64,000 nucleotides of DNA from IMG/VR virus record IMGVR_UViG_3300021376_000006; one strand, 5' to 3'. Within the stretch, counting starts at the first letter, position 1, and each line of letters opens with the position of its first letter. This DNA is from a virus (taxonomy: Duplodnaviria; Caudoviricetes). Positions 2,746-21,238 of the stretch are shown here, piece by piece. Below the pieces are notes generated by a model. The model was not told the DNA's origin, did not search any database, and saw nothing but the letters and a program-made list of their open reading frames with translations. The position numbers were made by a program, and so were the translations under genes.

Positions 2746-3818
2746 AATAAATGTATTTTATTTTGTATTATTTGATTAATGTCATTAAACAATTCTGTCT
2801 TTATGCTTTTATAGGCACTAGGCCAAGACCAAAAAAGATTTTGGTTATGTTCTAGTATAGGTAAAATTTCACGATGTAATTTTTCTAATTTGTTCACTGA
2901 CCAAGTTGACATTTCTAAAAGTAAATGAAAAATAGCTTCTAGTCTGTAATTTCCTGCTAAACTATCGTAATCTTCATCCCAAAAATTAGCAAAAGTTTGA
3001 AATCCTAAATCTTGTAACATTTTTAGAGAACCAGGATTGCCGTGTAAAATAAATGGGTGCCCAAACACTATAGGTTTAAAAATTTTTTCTGTAAAATATG
3101 GAAACGGTTGATCGTCATAGGTTTCAAATACTACAGAACAAAATGTATCTTCATAGTATTTTTTATCTCCTATAGACCAATCATTTATTTCAAATTTGTC
3201 CCCCTTAATTGTAAACGGTATATTATTATGCAGTTTGTGTAAATCTAGATTTTTACAGAACCATGCGGTATGACTACTTAGCATTTCTTCGGATATTTCG
3301 TCGTAAGACTTATATTTTGATCTTTCAAGCTCTCCTAAATAACTAAAATATGATTTTTCGATTAAATTAAATTTTACAAAAAAATAATATAGTGATTGTC
3401 TTGCTACAGATGCTCTGTTATTAAGAGAAAGAAAATGAAATTTGATATTTTTTTTTAATTCTACCTTTTGAAAATGGTCAGTATAATAGTTGTAGATAAG
3501 TGGTTGATACAAGAAAGAAAAAAAATCTTGATATTCATCGAAAAGAGATTGAGGATATTTGTGAGAGTGGACAATAATGTAATAATTTTTTAATTTTCCA
3601 GTCATTTCATAATGACTTTTGCTATTAGCTAAAATTTCTTCGATCCAGTCATAAGTATGATATTCTAAATAAAGTAAGATGATAATTTTGCCTTCTATGT
3701 CGGCAAAAGAGTTCATAGTATCATCATTTGGATCGTGCGTTTGTAAAACAAAAACTTTATCGCTGGTGATTTTAAAATCATCTAATAATGTAGGAACGCT
3801 ACACATTTGCGCGGTCAT
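2742..3818 (-). CDS. Hypothetical protein with glycosyltransferase-like C-terminus
   Basis: 358 aa AT-rich ORF; FETY...YFTEKIFKPI...HPF segment resembles GT10-like C-terminal motif; function is inference. Confidence 0.55.
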   Translation of the reverse strand: MTAQMCSVPTLLDDFKITSDKVFVLQTHDPNDDTMNSFADIEGKIIILLYLEYHTYDWIEEILANSKSHYEMTGKLKNYYIIVHSHKYPQSLFDEYQDFFSFLYQPLIYNYYTDHFQKVELKKNIKFHFLSLNNRASVARQSLYYFFVKFNLIEKSYFSYLGELERSKYKSYDEISEEMLSSHTAWFCKNLDLHKLHNNIPFTIKGDKFEINDWSIGDKKYYEDTFCSVVFETYDDQPFPYFTEKIFKPIVFGHPFILHGNPGSLKMLQDLGFQTFANFWDEDYDSLAGNYRLEAIFHLLLEMSTWSVNKLEKLHREILPILEHNQNLFWSWPSAYKSIKTELFNDINQIIQNKIHLL

Positions 3819-17399: not shown

Positions 17400-17592
17400 A
17401 TCTTAATAACCCTGATTCGTAATAAAGTGCAGTTAAATCTAAATATTCTAACCTATAGGTTACAAAGGAAGGACGCCAAAATCTTGCTGTTTTATCTAGC
17501 CTTACAGTTATTACCCTTTTGTTTATTCGAATAGACCAAACACAAGAAAATCTTGACTTACAATAATAAAAGTTTATATCATTTTTAGTCAT
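17380..17592 (-). CDS. Hypothetical protein
   Basis: Start reassigned to MTKND at 17592, overlapping the queE stop. Confidence 0.45.
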   Translation of the reverse strand: MTKNDINFYYCKSRFSCVWSIRINKRVITVRLDKTARFWRPSFVTYRLEYLDLTALYYESGLLRYERNEN

Positions 17593-18440
17593 CAAGTTCC
17601 CCATTCGTTTTTAAATAACGGTACTTGAAGTCTATCGCTGTATCGTAAACCATGTTTCATTGCTAACAGTGCAACGTTGCGGTTATTTAAAGTATATACA
17701 CTTTCAATACCTCCTACTGGCATAAGATAAATTGATCCTTTAAATCCTGCATTACGATACTGCTCTGTGGCTTTTAAAGCATCTGTGACATCTTCTTCGG
17801 TTGCCACAACAAACTTGAGATAGGTGTAACCAACAGTGGCATAATCGCACACAATGTTGGGTTTGATTGCATCTTCCCATGACTCTCCACTGACAGGTAG
17901 TTTTGCGCTTACACTGAATGTAACTTCTCTATCTCGAGACGCAGCAGTCCATTCGCCTAGATAATGTTTGAACTCTTTGGTTAGCTCTTGAGTACCGTTA
18001 GTTTCAAAAGTAATTTCTTTTAACTTTTGCATACGAGGATGATTCAGCAGATCTTCGTAACTACGCTGCCAACCTAGTAGAGGCTCGCCACCTGTAATAA
18101 CAAGATGTTCGTCCTTCCACTTGCTATGTGGAAGAATTTCCATAATTTGTTCCACAATTGCATCACTGGTTAGCATAGGACTAAGATCTTTGAATCTTGG
18201 ATCCCAGCTTGCATAACTGTCACAGCCTGTACTTACCAAAGGTAAATCATCGTATTTGTTGTAATAATGCACTCTTGCTGCTATATCTTCTACTTCTCTA
18301 CTTAGTTTTCCTCTAGGCATACCGAATCCTGCACATTTAAAGTTGCAACCAAATGTGCGAAGAAAGACACTAGGCACACCCATGTATCTGCCTTCGCCTT
18401 GGATTGAATAAAATAGTTCAGCTACTTTGATTTTACTCAT
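17592..18440 (-). CDS. queE: 7-carboxy-7-deazaguanine synthase (radical SAM)
   Basis: ELFYSIQGEG, VFLRTFGCNFKC...CDS (CxxxC with displaced third Cys), ITGGEPLL, ETNGT, LKFVV, RLQV. Confidence 0.92.
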   Translation of the reverse strand: MSKIKVAELFYSIQGEGRYMGVPSVFLRTFGCNFKCAGFGMPRGKLSREVEDIAARVHYYNKYDDLPLVSTGCDSYASWDPRFKDLSPMLTSDAIVEQIMEILPHSKWKDEHLVITGGEPLLGWQRSYEDLLNHPRMQKLKEITFETNGTQELTKEFKHYLGEWTAASRDREVTFSVSAKLPVSGESWEDAIKPNIVCDYATVGYTYLKFVVATEEDVTDALKATEQYRNAGFKGSIYLMPVGGIESVYTLNNRNVALLAMKHGLRYSDRLQVPLFKNEWGT

Positions 18441-18442
18441 GA

Positions 18443-18967
18443 TTATCCTTGGTAGGTTGCACTGTTAGCACCGTGCTCAAATACTTCTACACTTTTTATA
18501 CGCACAGTTGGATTGATTGGATAACGCAAAGCGTCACCGGCTAACAGTTCACTCATTTTGTCATAGCACATCTTGGCAAACATTTCGCACCCTACACCCG
18601 GAACAATGCGTAGATCACACAATGCACCTCGTTCGTATGGTTTAACTTGTTCTAAACTTCCGGTACCAGACATAGGCATGTTGCCCTGATGACTCATTCG
18701 TACAAAAAAATCTAGGTGAGGATCATCTTCGGCCACAATTAGAGTATGATCAAACATGTAGTCGGCCCATGACTTGAATTCTTTGAGACCTCCAAAGTCC
18801 ATGCACCAGTTTTTATCGTCTAGTGTATCACATTCAAATACCAGCCGAATGCCAATTGAATAACCGTGTAGCGTTGAACAATGGCTGTGTGTGGCACGCC
18901 ATTGTCTAAAGCAACAGCTGAGTCCTCGGTCGTTGCCATAAGTTTTTGTTGAGTAAAATTGTGCCAA
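18443..18967 (-). CDS. queD: 6-carboxy-5,6,7,8-tetrahydropterin synthase
   Basis: HSHCSTLHGY, DFGGLK, FDHT, CEMFA, VEVFEH; TTG start after AGGAG. Confidence 0.9.
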   Translation of the reverse strand: MAQFYSTKTYGNDRGLSCCFRQWRATHSHCSTLHGYSIGIRLVFECDTLDDKNWCMDFGGLKEFKSWADYMFDHTLIVAEDDPHLDFFVRMSHQGNMPMSGTGSLEQVKPYERGALCDLRIVPGVGCEMFAKMCYDKMSELLAGDALRYPINPTVRIKSVEVFEHGANSATYQG

Positions 18968-18976
18968 TTTAATTCT

Positions 18977-19043
18977 CCTATGTTAAATTTTAGCATAGGC
19001 CTGCAGAATTTGTAAAGCGGGATGAAGAGCCAGGAAGGCCGCT
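18977..19043 (-). promoter_or_regulatory. Structured 5' leader of queD with SD-sequestering hairpin and possible nested promoter
   Basis: AGCGG/CCGCU stem; CCUAUG/CAUAGG stem covering the SD; competing GGCCU/AGGCC pairing; TTTACA-N18-TAAAAT. Confidence 0.55.
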
Positions 19044-19053
19044 GTGTAAAGTT

Positions 19054-19233
19054 TTATTTATTAATGTATATGCAGTTAGCTGAAACTCTGTATCTATCTG
19101 ATTTCCAGGCTTGACGAACATAATCTCTTGTCTTTTCGCATTCTTCAAAATTTTGAGTTGGAAAACTTATAGAACCTCGAGATGATGGCACATTTGGATT
19201 AATTGCATGCAACATAATTATTAGAGTCCACAT
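19054..19233 (-). CDS. Small secreted or membrane protein with two Cys
   Basis: Start reassigned to MWTLIIML; TATAAATA at 19239-19246 immediately upstream. Confidence 0.65.
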   Translation of the reverse strand: MWTLIIMLHAINPNVPSSRGSISFPTQNFEECEKTRDYVRQAWKSDRYRVSANCIYINK

Positions 19234-19273: not shown

Positions 19274-19558
19274 TTACAGTTTGAATATTGTTGGCAGTAA
19301 CATACTGGCAGTACTAGCATCATCCCCGTGAAAGTGAAGTCTAGTACCGCCTGTGCCATTTTGGTGATGATGACAACGTTTTGCCTTGCCGTAACTAACA
19401 TATTTCACAATTTGTTCTCGACCACGACTGTCCCAAAATTTAGATTCAATTACAGTGCCGTCAATCATCTTGTACCACTCTATCATATCATCAGTGAGTT
19501 CGTCTACATCAATCCAGACCGCATACGTTACTGTGCAACCTGGTGGTAAAGCTATCAT
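19274..19558 (-). CDS. Hypothetical protein
   Basis: Start MIALPPG overlapping the PRTase stop; 3' end possibly frameshifted. Confidence 0.65.
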   Translation of the reverse strand: MIALPPGCTVTYAVWIDVDELTDDMIEWYKMIDGTVIESKFWDSRGREQIVKYVSYGKAKRCHHHQNGTGGTRLHFHGDDASTASMLLPTIFKL

Positions 19559-20103
19559 TGAGCCCACCACGTTTCCCAAGGAAAAACAACCCAACAAGGA
19601 TCATCGAGTTTGTTTATGTTGCGACCGCTATAGCTAATACCTTCGTAGCTGCTGGCTTCATTGTTTACAACAACTGCGAATCTTACATTACGGTTCCAGA
19701 TTGCCGACCATGCAGGATGATTGGGCAAGCAACTGCTCTGCCAATCTTGTCTAATCCATTCTAGTGTAGCACCTGAGTCATTGATGTCATCCACTATCAA
19801 TATTTTTTTTCGATAAGCAGGATCAGTGTCTGCATCACCTGAACCACGTTCGTCTTTGGGCACATAACCAAATGCCTGTTCGGCCATCCATAAATTACTT
19901 TCAGATTCCCCACCGTCACGCAAGCTCACTTTAAGTGTTTCACAAGGAACACCAAAGTAATGACTGATCATTACAGCAGGTTGCAATCCGCCCCGAGTTA
20001 TACCAACTACATAATCTGGACGCCAATTACTATTTGCAATATCTCTGCACAGTTTGTTGACCAAACCTTTGAATTCAGAATCTGAAATAATTAGTTGTTT
20101 CAT
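19555..20103 (-). CDS. Type I purine phosphoribosyltransferase (Gpt/Hpt-like)
   Basis: VVGITRGG, PRPP loop LIVDDINDSGATL, WVVFPWE. Confidence 0.9.
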   Translation of the reverse strand: MKQLIISDSEFKGLVNKLCRDIANSNWRPDYVVGITRGGLQPAVMISHYFGVPCETLKVSLRDGGESESNLWMAEQAFGYVPKDERGSGDADTDPAYRKKILIVDDINDSGATLEWIRQDWQSSCLPNHPAWSAIWNRNVRFAVVVNNEASSYEGISYSGRNINKLDDPCWVVFPWETWWAQ

Positions 20104-20542: not shown

Positions 20543-21238
20543 CTATCTGGGAGCAAATTCTTGTTGTAGTTTAACGTTGTCAAAAAATTCTTTTTTGGTT
20601 GCAGCATCGTCTTTGAATGCGCCTCTCAACACTGTTGTTTGGGTAAGACTGCTATGTGCCATAATGCCTCTATTCTCGCAGCAACCGTGCGTGGCTTGTA
20701 TATAAACTGCCACATCCTTACTTCCAGTTGCAAACTCAATTTCTCTGGCGATATCCATACATAGTTCTTCTTGAAGTGTGCCGCGCCGCGCACACCATTG
20801 TGCAATTCGCGTGTACTTCGAGAGACCAATGAGTTTGGGTCCAGCAATAATACCAATATAAGCAACACCCGACACAGGTTGATGATGATGGCTACAAACA
20901 CTTTTAAGTTCGCTTCGAACTACAAGCATTCCGTCGTATGCCCCATCAGTGTCATTTGGAAATGCAGTTGCGTTGGGTGTAGGATCATATCTACCTGCCA
21001 TCAATTCATAGTAATACATTTTGGCAAGACGTCTTGCTGTGCCTTTACTGTTGGGATCAGTTGCTCGGTCAATCAACAATGTATCTAGCACTTGTTCAAA
21101 AGCCTCTGTGGCTTCGTCAATCAACTGATCTCGATCTTCGTCATTCACATAACTGCTTATGTTGTCACCGGCCCAATATCTCTTGCCGTCTGCCTGCATC
21201 TGTTCTCTAATACGATCACTTACTCTTGTATATTTCAT
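20543..21238 (-). CDS. folE: GTP cyclohydrolase I
   Basis: TARRLAKMY, CSHHHQP, GLSKYTR, LQEEL, HGCCENRG. Confidence 0.95.
   Translation of the reverse strand: MKYTRVSDRIREQMQADGKRYWAGDNISSYVNDEDRDQLIDEATEAFEQVLDTLLIDRATDPNSKGTARRLAKMYYYELMAGRYDPTPNATAFPNDTDGAYDGMLVVRSELKSVCSHHHQPVSGVAYIGIIAGPKLIGLSKYTRIAQWCARRGTLQEELCMDIAREIEFATGSKDVAVYIQATHGCCENRGIMAHSSLTQTTVLRGAFKDDAATKKEFFDNVKLQQEFAPR

What the first reader, a model, noticed from the sequence alone, without database searches (positions are those of the whole stretch)
18965..19050. Switch-like structured leader upstream of queD
Seen: GC-rich untranslated segment with stem AGCGG/CCGCU, an SD-occluding hairpin CCUAUG/CAUAGG, and a GGCCU/AGGCC pairing that competes for the CC of the anti-SD arm; queD starts at TTG. 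A possible promoter TTTACA-N18-TAAAAT sits inside. It does not resemble preQ1-I architecture as I recall it. Inference: either a new riboswitch or protein-binding operator tuned to GTP or a deazaguanine intermediate, or another promoter-in-hairpin device.
Basis: partly seen in the sequence, partly recalled or inferred. Interest (0 to 1): 0.65.

Follow-up and report, generated by a model that had tools for sequence, protein, structure and literature searches.

The report
Phage queD-leader pseudoknot, probable ON riboswitch
The short leader before this giant lake phage's queD gene folds into a small RNA pseudoknot that more than 130 distinct uncultured phage sequences keep through compensating base changes; it matches no catalogued RNA family and is wired like a riboswitch that switches translation on, with a second promoter nested inside it in this phage's subgroup.

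Summary
Alone they fold no better than shuffles (z -0.47), but comparison makes them significant. Window 18998-19043 (minus strand) is one copy of a roughly 46-nt H-type pseudoknot. P1 is AGCGG/CCGCU. P2 joins the P1 loop to AGGCC, which lies after an A-rich tail and an invariant UCUGC. Both helices covary across 133 distinct phage sequences. The motif occurs once per genome, in front of queD in nearly every case, and was absent from bacterial chromosomes, GenBank phages, Rfam 15 and the papers searched. In 130 of 131 leaders the P2 3' strand also forms part of the hairpin that hides the ribosome-binding site. Folding the knot should therefore free that site, which is ON logic. The fold resembles preQ1-I, but the preQ1-I model does not match and the logic is reversed. 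The ligand is unknown. In the window's subgroup a sigma-70-type promoter (TTTACA-N18-TGcTAAAAT) sits inside the switch in 45 of 47 variants, and these variants lack the upstream promoter seen in other subgroups. This scan had already found the same motif in many other genomes, with the same reading.

The parts
19055..19061 (-). ATAAATA, a candidate phage-type (T4-late-like) promoter 11 nt before P1. It overlaps the stop codon of the upstream small ORF.
   Evidence: 15 of the window's 16 ATAAATA copies lie on the coding strand, most of them 10-35 nt before an SD and start codon. In the window's subgroup, TAAATA lies 5-12 nt before P1 in 28 of 47 variants. Function is inferred.
19039..19043 (-). 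P1 5' strand, AGCGG
   Evidence: Pairs with 19016-19020. In the family, 4 of 5 pairs show changes on both sides, for example C-G 88, A-U 25, U-A 20. 114 of 120 pattern hits have a perfect P1, although the pattern did not ask for it.
19032..19038 (-). L1, CCUUCCU. The family has a conserved N-C-U-Y start followed by a part of variable length.
   Evidence: Alignments A1 and A2
19027..19031 (-). P2 5' strand, GGCU(C), inside the P1 loop
   Evidence: Pairs with 18998-19002: G19031-C18998, G19030-C18999, C19029-G19000, U19028-G19001. The MAFFT register, shifted by one, gives 4 of 5 pairs. All P2 core pairs covary, for example U-A 53, C-G 26, A-U 17, G-C 16.
19021..19026 (-). L2, UUCAUC, nearly invariant and ending in an invariant C next to P1
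   Evidence: It occupies the same position as the specificity C of preQ1-I (PMC10622847). Function is not tested.
19016..19020 (-). P1 3' strand, CCGCU
19003..19015 (-). L3: A-rich tail UUACAAA followed by the invariant UUCUGC
   Evidence: Three A positions and UCUGC are invariant in the protein-anchored alignment A2. Two tail positions covary with the middle P1 pair. In the window's MFE, AAUUCU pairs with AGAAUU (18976-18971) behind the SD.
18998..19002 (-). P2 3' strand, AGGCC, shared with the SD-masking hairpin (the CC)
18977..18999 (-). SD-masking hairpin: CCUAUG (18999-18994), an 11-nt loop, then CAUAGG (18982-18977)
   Evidence: About -6.5 to -6.8 kcal/mol within the 51-52-nt platform folds. 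It is nearly invariant in 47 subgroup variants, with C-to-U wobble changes and one compensatory G-C to A-U change in L179.
18987..19016 (-). Nested sigma-70-type promoter: -35 TTTACA (19016-19011), an 18-nt spacer, TG (18995-18994), and -10 TAAAAT (18992-18987). The predicted start is near 18979-18981, inside the 3' arm of the hairpin.
   Evidence: scores it 10 of 12 plus TG. It is conserved in 45 of 47 subgroup variants and absent (0 of 68) from subgroups B and C, many of which carry an upstream promoter instead. The transcription start is not mapped.
18975..18979 (-). Shine-Dalgarno AGGAG
   Evidence: Lies 7 nt before the start codon. Conserved in the family.
18443..18967 (-). queD (174 aa, TTG start), followed by queE at 17592-18440
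   Evidence: Pfam PTPS 2.3e-15; Radical_SAM and Fer4_12 for queE. The start codon aligns with the ATG of relatives.

Best explanation
The segment is the 5' leader of queD, the first committed step from the FolE product towards 7-deazaguanine. It holds one copy of a phage-specific H-type pseudoknot RNA.

Shown:
- Both helices (P1 and the loop-to-tail helix P2) covary.
- About 20 unpaired nucleotides are nearly invariant.
- The motif is single-copy and tied to queD.
- The 3' strand of P2 is also part of a hairpin that masks the ribosome-binding site.

Inferred:
- The knot binds a small molecule.
- Binding locks P2, keeps the masking hairpin from forming, and so turns translation of queD(-queE) ON.
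- The ligand is unknown. The gene association and the pyrimidine-rich conserved loops suggest a purine-, pterin- or 7-deazapurine-like compound. ON logic suggests a precursor or a signal rather than the end product.

In the window's subgroup:
- A sigma-70-type promoter is built into the switch, with its -35 in the aptamer tail and its -10 in the hairpin loop.
- It would give a second mRNA that starts inside the hairpin's 3' arm. That mRNA would lack both the aptamer and the mask and would be translated without gating.
- Transcripts from the upstream ATAAATA-type promoter would carry the full switch.
For: Conservation and specificity:
- 75 of 80 QueD-anchored IMG/VR loci carry the leader. L019 also carries it, with a 4-bp P1, and the other four lack a leader.
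- A sequence pattern that did not require pairing found 120 or more phage loci. 114 have a perfect P1 and 113 have queD directly downstream. In the rest, queD is the second gene.
- The QueD proteins behind the motif fall to 30% identity while the RNA core stays nearly invariant.

Structure:
- 85.6% of cells are paired, against 65% in shuffles and 37-49% when the partners are slid.
- 11 of 12 pairs show changes on both sides.
- Tail positions covary with the middle P1 pair, as in a tail-to-helix triple.

Copy number:
- One hit of 48-62 bits per large contig, and 53.7 bits in the window.

Switch wiring:
- In 130 of 131 leaders at least 2 P2 3' nucleotides (mean 3.9 of 5) pair within the predicted downstream hairpin structure that holds the SD and start codon.
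- Blocking the aptamer raises SD and start-codon accessibility in 85 of 131 leaders and lowers it in 7.
- At least three different platform designs keep the same logic. The start-codon region mimics the P2 5' strand, for example GACUU / AAGUCAUC / GAUGACUU.

Promoter:
-.

No terminator-like site was found.
Against:
- The window's own fold is not more stable than shuffles.
- In the window's subgroup the mask overlaps P2 by only 2 nt, and the hairpin is almost invariant, so covariation for it is thin.
- An ON switch on a biosynthetic gene is unusual.
- P1 statistics in A1 are partly circular, because extraction required a paired P1.
- Accessibility figures come from nearest-neighbour folding without pseudoknot energies.
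- Both promoters are consensus matches without mapped transcription starts.
Confidence: 0.6

Rival explanations
1. The pseudoknot is an operator for a protein or other macromolecule, such as a phage RNA-binding protein, QueD itself or the ribosome. Binding of that partner, rather than a metabolite, decides between the knot and the mask, as with the 5' pseudoknot of T4 gene 32 mRNA.
For: The structural facts are the same as for the main reading. Phage precedent for pseudoknot operators exists, though this is from my own knowledge and was not checked here. No ligand has been identified.
Against: The unpaired core is nearly invariant across phages whose QueD is only 30-45% identical. A co-evolving phage protein partner would be expected to let the RNA drift. 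No conserved candidate binder travels with the motif, and the neighbouring genes differ.
Confidence: 0.2
2. The structure does not depend on a ligand. It could be a 5'-terminal stabiliser, a co-transcriptional folding timer or a temperature or Mg2+ sensor. In the window's subgroup, regulation would then come only from the choice of promoter: masked long transcripts against unmasked short ones, as in the T4 e, soc, 49 and I-TevI genes.
For: The nested promoter is conserved in 45 of 47 subgroup variants. The aptamer begins at the predicted 5' end of the transcript.
Against: Subgroups B and C have no nested promoter (0 of 68), yet they keep the same knot and a competing mask. About 20 invariant unpaired nucleotides are more than a stabiliser or thermometer needs. 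A knot that always forms would make the conserved mask pointless.
Confidence: 0.13
3. It is an ordinary, divergent preQ1-I riboswitch that binds preQ1 or preQ0 and represses queD.
For: Same topology, a 5-bp P1, a C before the P1 3' strand, an A-rich tail, and association with a queuosine-pathway gene.
Against: - The RF00522 model gives nothing at the motif in 4 of 5 contigs and 9.3 bits in the fifth, against a cut-off of 39 bits.
- No Rfam hit appeared at E up to 10.
- The aptamer is 46-52 nt rather than 30-36.
- The first L1 base is variable.
- An extra invariant UCUGC is present.
- The SD is not in P2, and the wiring is ON, not OFF.
Confidence: 0.05
4. The element is chance complementarity around an ordinary promoter, with no RNA function.
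For: The single-sequence folding energy is unremarkable. A good promoter match overlaps the element.
Against: Covariation in two helices across 133 distinct sequences, and near-total specificity for queD.
Confidence: 0.01

Closest known systems
preQ1-I riboswitch (Rfam RF00522; types I-III, as described in PMC10622847)
   Same: H-type pseudoknot with a 5-bp P1. The hairpin loop pairs with sequence 3' of an A-rich tail. An invariant C sits directly before the P1 3' strand, where preQ1-I has its specificity base. It sits in the leader of a queuosine or 7-deazaguanine pathway gene and acts on translation.
   Different: - Not detected by the RF00522 model.
- 46-52 nt against 30-36 nt.
- L1 is 4-9 nt with a variable first base.
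- P2 is 4-7 bp.
- An invariant UCUGC is added to the tail.
- The SD or start codon is not inside P2; instead it is masked by a hairpin that competes with P2, so the predicted logic is ON rather than OFF.
- Found only in uncultured phages.
Promoter-in-hairpin translational control of phage T4 genes e (lysozyme), soc, 49 and I-TevI
   Same: The ribosome-binding site is masked by a hairpin in long transcripts. A promoter inside the structure gives a shorter transcript that lacks the 5' arm and is translated.
   Different: Here the nested promoter is sigma-70-like and the upstream one is TATAAATA-like, the reverse of T4. The mask is also coupled to a conserved pseudoknot aptamer. The nested promoter is confined to one subgroup.
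Translational ON riboswitches such as the add adenine riboswitch of Vibrio vulnificus (my own knowledge)
   Same: One aptamer strand is shared with a helix that masks the ribosome-binding site, so forming the aptamer frees that site.
   Different: A different fold (three-way junction against pseudoknot), a known ligand, and a bacterial setting.
5' pseudoknot operator of T4 gene 32 mRNA (my own knowledge)
   Same: A phage H-type pseudoknot at the 5' end of an mRNA that takes part in translational control.
   Different: That knot nucleates binding of the encoded protein. Here no protein partner is indicated, and the conserved loops point to a pocket.

Membership tests
preQ1-I riboswitch (RF00522) | Match to the family covariance model at or above the gathering score (39 bits) | tested here: not met
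   No hit in the window at gathering or at E up to 10, and none in six other representatives. The direct RF00522 search of five motif-bearing contigs gave only 9.3 bits (E 6.9) at one motif and nothing at the other four.
preQ1-I riboswitch (RF00522) | H-type pseudoknot: a short P1 whose loop pairs with the 3' tail (P2) | tested here: met
   P1 and P2 are both supported by covariation. 85.6% of cells are paired against 37-49% when slid, and 11 of 12 pairs change on both sides.
preQ1-I riboswitch (RF00522) | Compact aptamer of 30-36 nt, with L1 of 1-2 nt holding a conserved U and a P2 of 3-4 bp (PMC10622847) | tested here: not met
   The aptamer is 46-52 nt. L1 is 4-9 nt with a variable first base (column entropy 1.58). 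P2 is 4-7 bp. An extra invariant UCUGC is present.
preQ1-I riboswitch (RF00522) | Conserved C at the end of L2 that reads the Watson-Crick face of the ligand | tested here: inconclusive
   An invariant C sits directly before the P1 3' strand. Its role cannot be tested with these tools.
preQ1-I riboswitch (RF00522) | The SD is sequestered in P2 on ligand binding (OFF switch) | tested here: not met
   The SD and start codon lie 20-40 nt downstream of P2. They are masked by a hairpin that shares nucleotides with the P2 3' strand in 130 of 131 leaders. Blocking the aptamer raises accessibility.
preQ1-I riboswitch (RF00522) | Binds preQ1 | not testable with these tools
   Needs in-line probing, ITC or SPR.
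preQ1-II (RF01054) and preQ1-III (RF02680) | Match to the family covariance model | tested here: not met
   No match from any Rfam 15 family at E up to 10 on the window leader or on six other representatives.
Riboswitch (general kind) | Conserved structured 5' leader with covarying helices, invariant unpaired nucleotides, and an expression platform that competes with the aptamer | tested here: met
Riboswitch (general kind) | Direct, selective binding of a metabolite that changes expression | not testable with these tools
   No ligand is known. Candidates are listed under next steps.
T4-type promoter-in-hairpin device | The ribosome-binding site is masked by a hairpin, and a promoter lies inside so that the short transcript lacks the 5' arm | tested here: inconclusive
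   The sequence elements are present and conserved in 45 of 47 subgroup variants, with the -10 in the loop, TG, a 17-18 nt spacer, and the predicted start in the 3' arm. No transcription start data exist.

The most novel reading that the evidence does not exclude
This would be a riboswitch class found only in phages. It would gate entry into 7-deazaguanine DNA modification by turning QueD translation ON in response to a precursor or signal. Candidates include dihydroneopterin triphosphate or another pterin, or guanine or GTP set free or recycled during base exchange. In one lineage a host-type promoter is nested in the expression platform, so that early transcripts bypass the sensor and phage-promoter transcripts are gated.
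Probability: 0.4. Interest if true: 0.85.

Novelty: new variant of a known kind. Interest (0 to 1): 0.75.

Why it matters
Riboswitches are almost all known from bacteria, and I know of no class restricted to phages. Phage DNA hypermodification with 7-deazaguanines is a main way of escaping restriction enzymes, and its regulation is unexplored.

If this RNA binds a metabolite, several things follow:
- It would be a new ligand-sensing fold related in shape to the smallest known riboswitch, but with reversed logic.
- It would show that phages sense metabolite levels to time or dose DNA modification.
- It would give a compact ON-switch part of about 50 nt for synthetic biology.
- The ligand could point to a metabolic bottleneck of infected cells, namely the split between folate and deazaguanine at the FolE product.

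The promoter nested inside an expression platform is also an unusual, testable layout.

Tried and rejected
Searches that found nothing:
- Rfam gathering and relaxed scans gave only noise.
- megablast and blastn against GenBank phages showed no relative of the locus or the leader.
- The preQ1-I model run directly on relatives gave noise only.
- The bacterial and archaeal genome scan gave 41 chance hits and 5 true ones, all on 4-8 kb MAG contigs carrying queD. These are probably misbinned phage DNA.
- Five usable full-text searches (a sixth was rejected for its syntax) and two candidate-RNA catalogues contained no queD motif. McCown et al. 2014 is not held.

Readings rejected:
- Single-sequence folding significance was not significant.
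L043, for example, has GGACU.
- A pairing partner for the invariant UCUGC inside the aptamer was sought by eye, and no consistent one was found.
- An intrinsic terminator or attenuator is unlikely, since no such site was found.

Other points:
- QueC and TGT Pfam searches of five large relatives gave only weak PP-loop hits and no TGT hit, so they say nothing about the ligand.
- My first two regular-expression parsers failed for technical reasons.
- The metagenome scan was not used, because the other collections gave enough.

Full report
**Setting.** All genes in this part of the window lie on the minus strand.
- folE is at 20543-21238, a phosphoribosyltransferase at 19555-20103, and small ORFs run down to 19054.
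- An 86-nt gap follows, then queD (18443-18967, TTG start) and queE (17592-18440).
- The locus has no close relative among GenBank phages. QueD is under 50% identical to any isolate's protein.
- IMG/VR holds hundreds of relatives on contigs of up to 382 kb, that is, uncultured giant phages.

**Observation.** The promoter scan ranks TTTACA-N18-TAAAAT, with an upstream TG, as the best site in the surrounding kilobase and finds no terminator. Taken alone, the RNA is not unusually stable (z = -0.47). The case therefore rests on comparison.

**Comparative evidence.**
- Of 80 loci fetched through QueD protein similarity alone (75-94% identity), 75 carry a recognisable leader with a 5-bp stem whose sequence changes in a compensating way: AGCGG/CCGCU, UGCGG/CCGCA, AGAGG/CCUCU, AGUGG/CCACU, ACCGG/CCGGU, AGUCG/CGACU. 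L019 has a 4-bp version. In L014, L047, L055, L057 and L058 there is no leader, because queD abuts the upstream gene.
114 have a perfect P1. 113 are followed within about 30-110 nt by a QueD homologue, which can be as little as 30% identical to the window's. In the apparent exceptions, queD is the second gene, behind a cupin, a methyltransferase or an unknown protein.
- The same pattern over 596 Gb of bacterial and archaeal genomes gave 46 hits. 41 are chance, with P1 unpaired and no queD. The 5 true ones all sit on 4-8 kb MAG contigs with queD.
- A covariance model built from the alignment finds one strong copy per large phage contig (48-62 bits) and one in the window (53.7 bits at 18994-19044). 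It finds none in a relative whose queD has no leader.
- Second copies are rare. One full copy in L043 precedes a radical-SAM gene inside the same cluster. A degenerate copy occurs in L100.

**Structure.**
- On a MAFFT alignment of 133 distinct aptamers, I tested P1 together with a pseudoknot helix P2. P2 joins the P1 loop to the five to seven bases that follow the invariant UCUGC.
- 85.6% of cells pair, against 65% in shuffles and 37-49% when the partners are slid. 11 of 12 pairs change on both sides.
- P2 was never used to select sequences, so its covariation is unbiased. One P2 pair, for example, reads U-A 53, C-G 26, A-U 17, G-C 16.
- P1 pairing in that alignment is partly by construction.
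- The unpaired core stays nearly invariant, also in the motif-agnostic alignment of fixed -85..+3 windows. The core is N-C-U-Y after P1, UCAYC before the P1 3' strand, a 7-nt tail with three fixed A's, then YUCUGC.
- Mutual information links the middle P1 pair to two tail positions. C-G goes with YAA, and A-U or U-A goes with AAY. This is what a tail docked along P1 would give, but phylogeny is not controlled.

**Switch logic.**
- Downstream of P2 there are at least three platform designs.
  - In the window's subgroup A, CCUAUG/CAUAGG covers AGG of the SD.
  - In subgroups B and C and in smaller variants, the P2 3' strand runs on into a 7-8 bp helix with the start codon region. Examples are UGUCAUC/GAUGGCA, GCCAUUG/CAAUGGC and AAGUCAUC/GAUGACUU.
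  - The start region thus mimics the P2 5' strand and changes along with it.
- In 130 of 131 leaders at least two P2 3' bases (mean 3.9 of 5) pair within the predicted downstream hairpin structure that holds the SD and start codon.
- Making the aptamer unavailable raises the predicted accessibility of the SD or the start codon in 85 leaders and lowers it in 7.
- In the window itself the MFE also pairs AAUUCU of the tail with AGAAUU behind the SD.
- The knot and the mask therefore exclude each other, and whatever stabilises the knot should switch translation on. That both states are conserved argues that something modulates the choice. That the loops are invariant across very divergent phages argues for an invariant partner, most simply a metabolite. 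These last steps are inference.

**Promoters.**
- In subgroup A (47 distinct variants, including the window), 45 have a sigma-70-type promoter scoring at least 10 of 13. Its -35 (TTTACA or TATACA) lies in the aptamer tail. TGnTAWAAT lies in the hairpin loop, and the spacing is 17-18 nt. None of the 47 has an upstream promoter at the same score, and only 2 reach 9 of 13.
- In subgroup C, 17 of 21 have a strong TTGACA-N16-17-TATAAT ending 6-7 nt before P1, and none has a nested one. In subgroup B the figures are 12-15 of 47 and 0.
- Subgroup A instead tends to have TAAATA 5-12 nt before P1 (28 of 47).
- In the window, ATAAATA occurs 16 times, 15 of them on the coding strand and mostly just upstream of an SD and start codon. 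This is a candidate phage-type promoter like T4's TATAAATA (my own knowledge).
- The nested promoter would start transcription around 18979-18981. That mRNA would have neither aptamer nor mask.

**Comparison with known systems.**
- The topology and several details match preQ1-I as described in PMC10622847: a 5-bp P1, a C next to the P1 3' strand, and an A-rich tail.
- Membership fails on the family model, on size, on L1, on the added UCUGC and on logic.
- No other Rfam 15 family matches. The full-text searches and two catalogues of candidate RNAs do not mention it.
- I therefore class it as a new variant of a known kind, the H-type pseudoknot translational riboswitch, with an unknown ligand.

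**Earlier notes of this scan.** After my own analysis I looked them up. The same motif has been noted in at least 89 other genomes. Several follow-up reports reached the same reading: preQ1-I-like knot, no catalogued family, ON logic. Some first readers also saw the nested promoter.

**Limits.** There are no binding data and no mapped transcript ends. Pseudoknot energies are not modelled, and there is no phylogeny-aware covariation statistic. The pattern-based set inherits the pattern's fixed bases.

Noticed in passing
window, minus strand: 60925, 58656, 55239, 52340, 48766, 45785, 42400, 36453, 33031, 30299, 19245, 19061, 13460, 7809, 6179: ATAAATA occurs 16 times, 15 of them on the coding strand. 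Most copies lie 10-35 nt before an SD and start codon. This looks like a phage-specific, T4-late-like promoter motif used throughout the window.
   Followed up: partly
L043:1346-1396 with L043:1422-2360: A close relative carries a second full copy of the pseudoknot (46.7 bits) behind a TATAAATA. It precedes a 312-aa radical-SAM gene (TTG start, degenerate SD) inserted between the phosphoribosyltransferase gene and queD. The motif can therefore control a second gene of the cluster.
   Followed up: partly
L100:7-54: A degenerate second copy (20.9 bits; UUCGC in place of UCUGC) lies 1 kb upstream of the intact one, before an unrelated 309-aa ORF. It may be a decaying duplicate.
   Followed up: no
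L178:6409-6750, L185:4617-5339, L192:4432-5163: In a few phages a gene sits between the motif and queD: a cupin (113 aa), a methyltransferase-like protein (240 aa) or an unknown protein (243 aa). These are candidate tailoring enzymes under the same control.
   Followed up: partly
L014, L047, L055, L057, L058 (around position 3001, or 2552 in L057): These relatives have no leader. The queD start overlaps the stop of an upstream gene (TAATATG), so queD there appears translationally coupled rather than switch-controlled.
   Followed up: no
L208:2550-3653, L122:4072-5163, L095:2685-4691: The genes after queD vary: a UvdE-type UV endonuclease in two phages and a B12-binding radical-SAM protein in another. 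Only 31 of 141 loci show a QueE like the window's within 3.5 kb.
   Followed up: no
window 19054-19233 (minus strand): The small ORF that ends at the ATAAATA motif (C-terminal ...SDRYRVSANC...) is conserved in relatives L020 and L023 and has no Pfam match. It is itself preceded by TATAAATA at 19246-19239, with only 5 nt between that motif and its ATG at 19233.
   Followed up: no
L215, L221, L236, L242, L249: The only motif copies in the species-genome collection lie on 4-8 kb contigs of MAGs labelled Bacteroidetes, Crocinitomicaceae, Nitrospira and Chitinophagales. They are probably phage contigs binned with bacteria.
   Followed up: no
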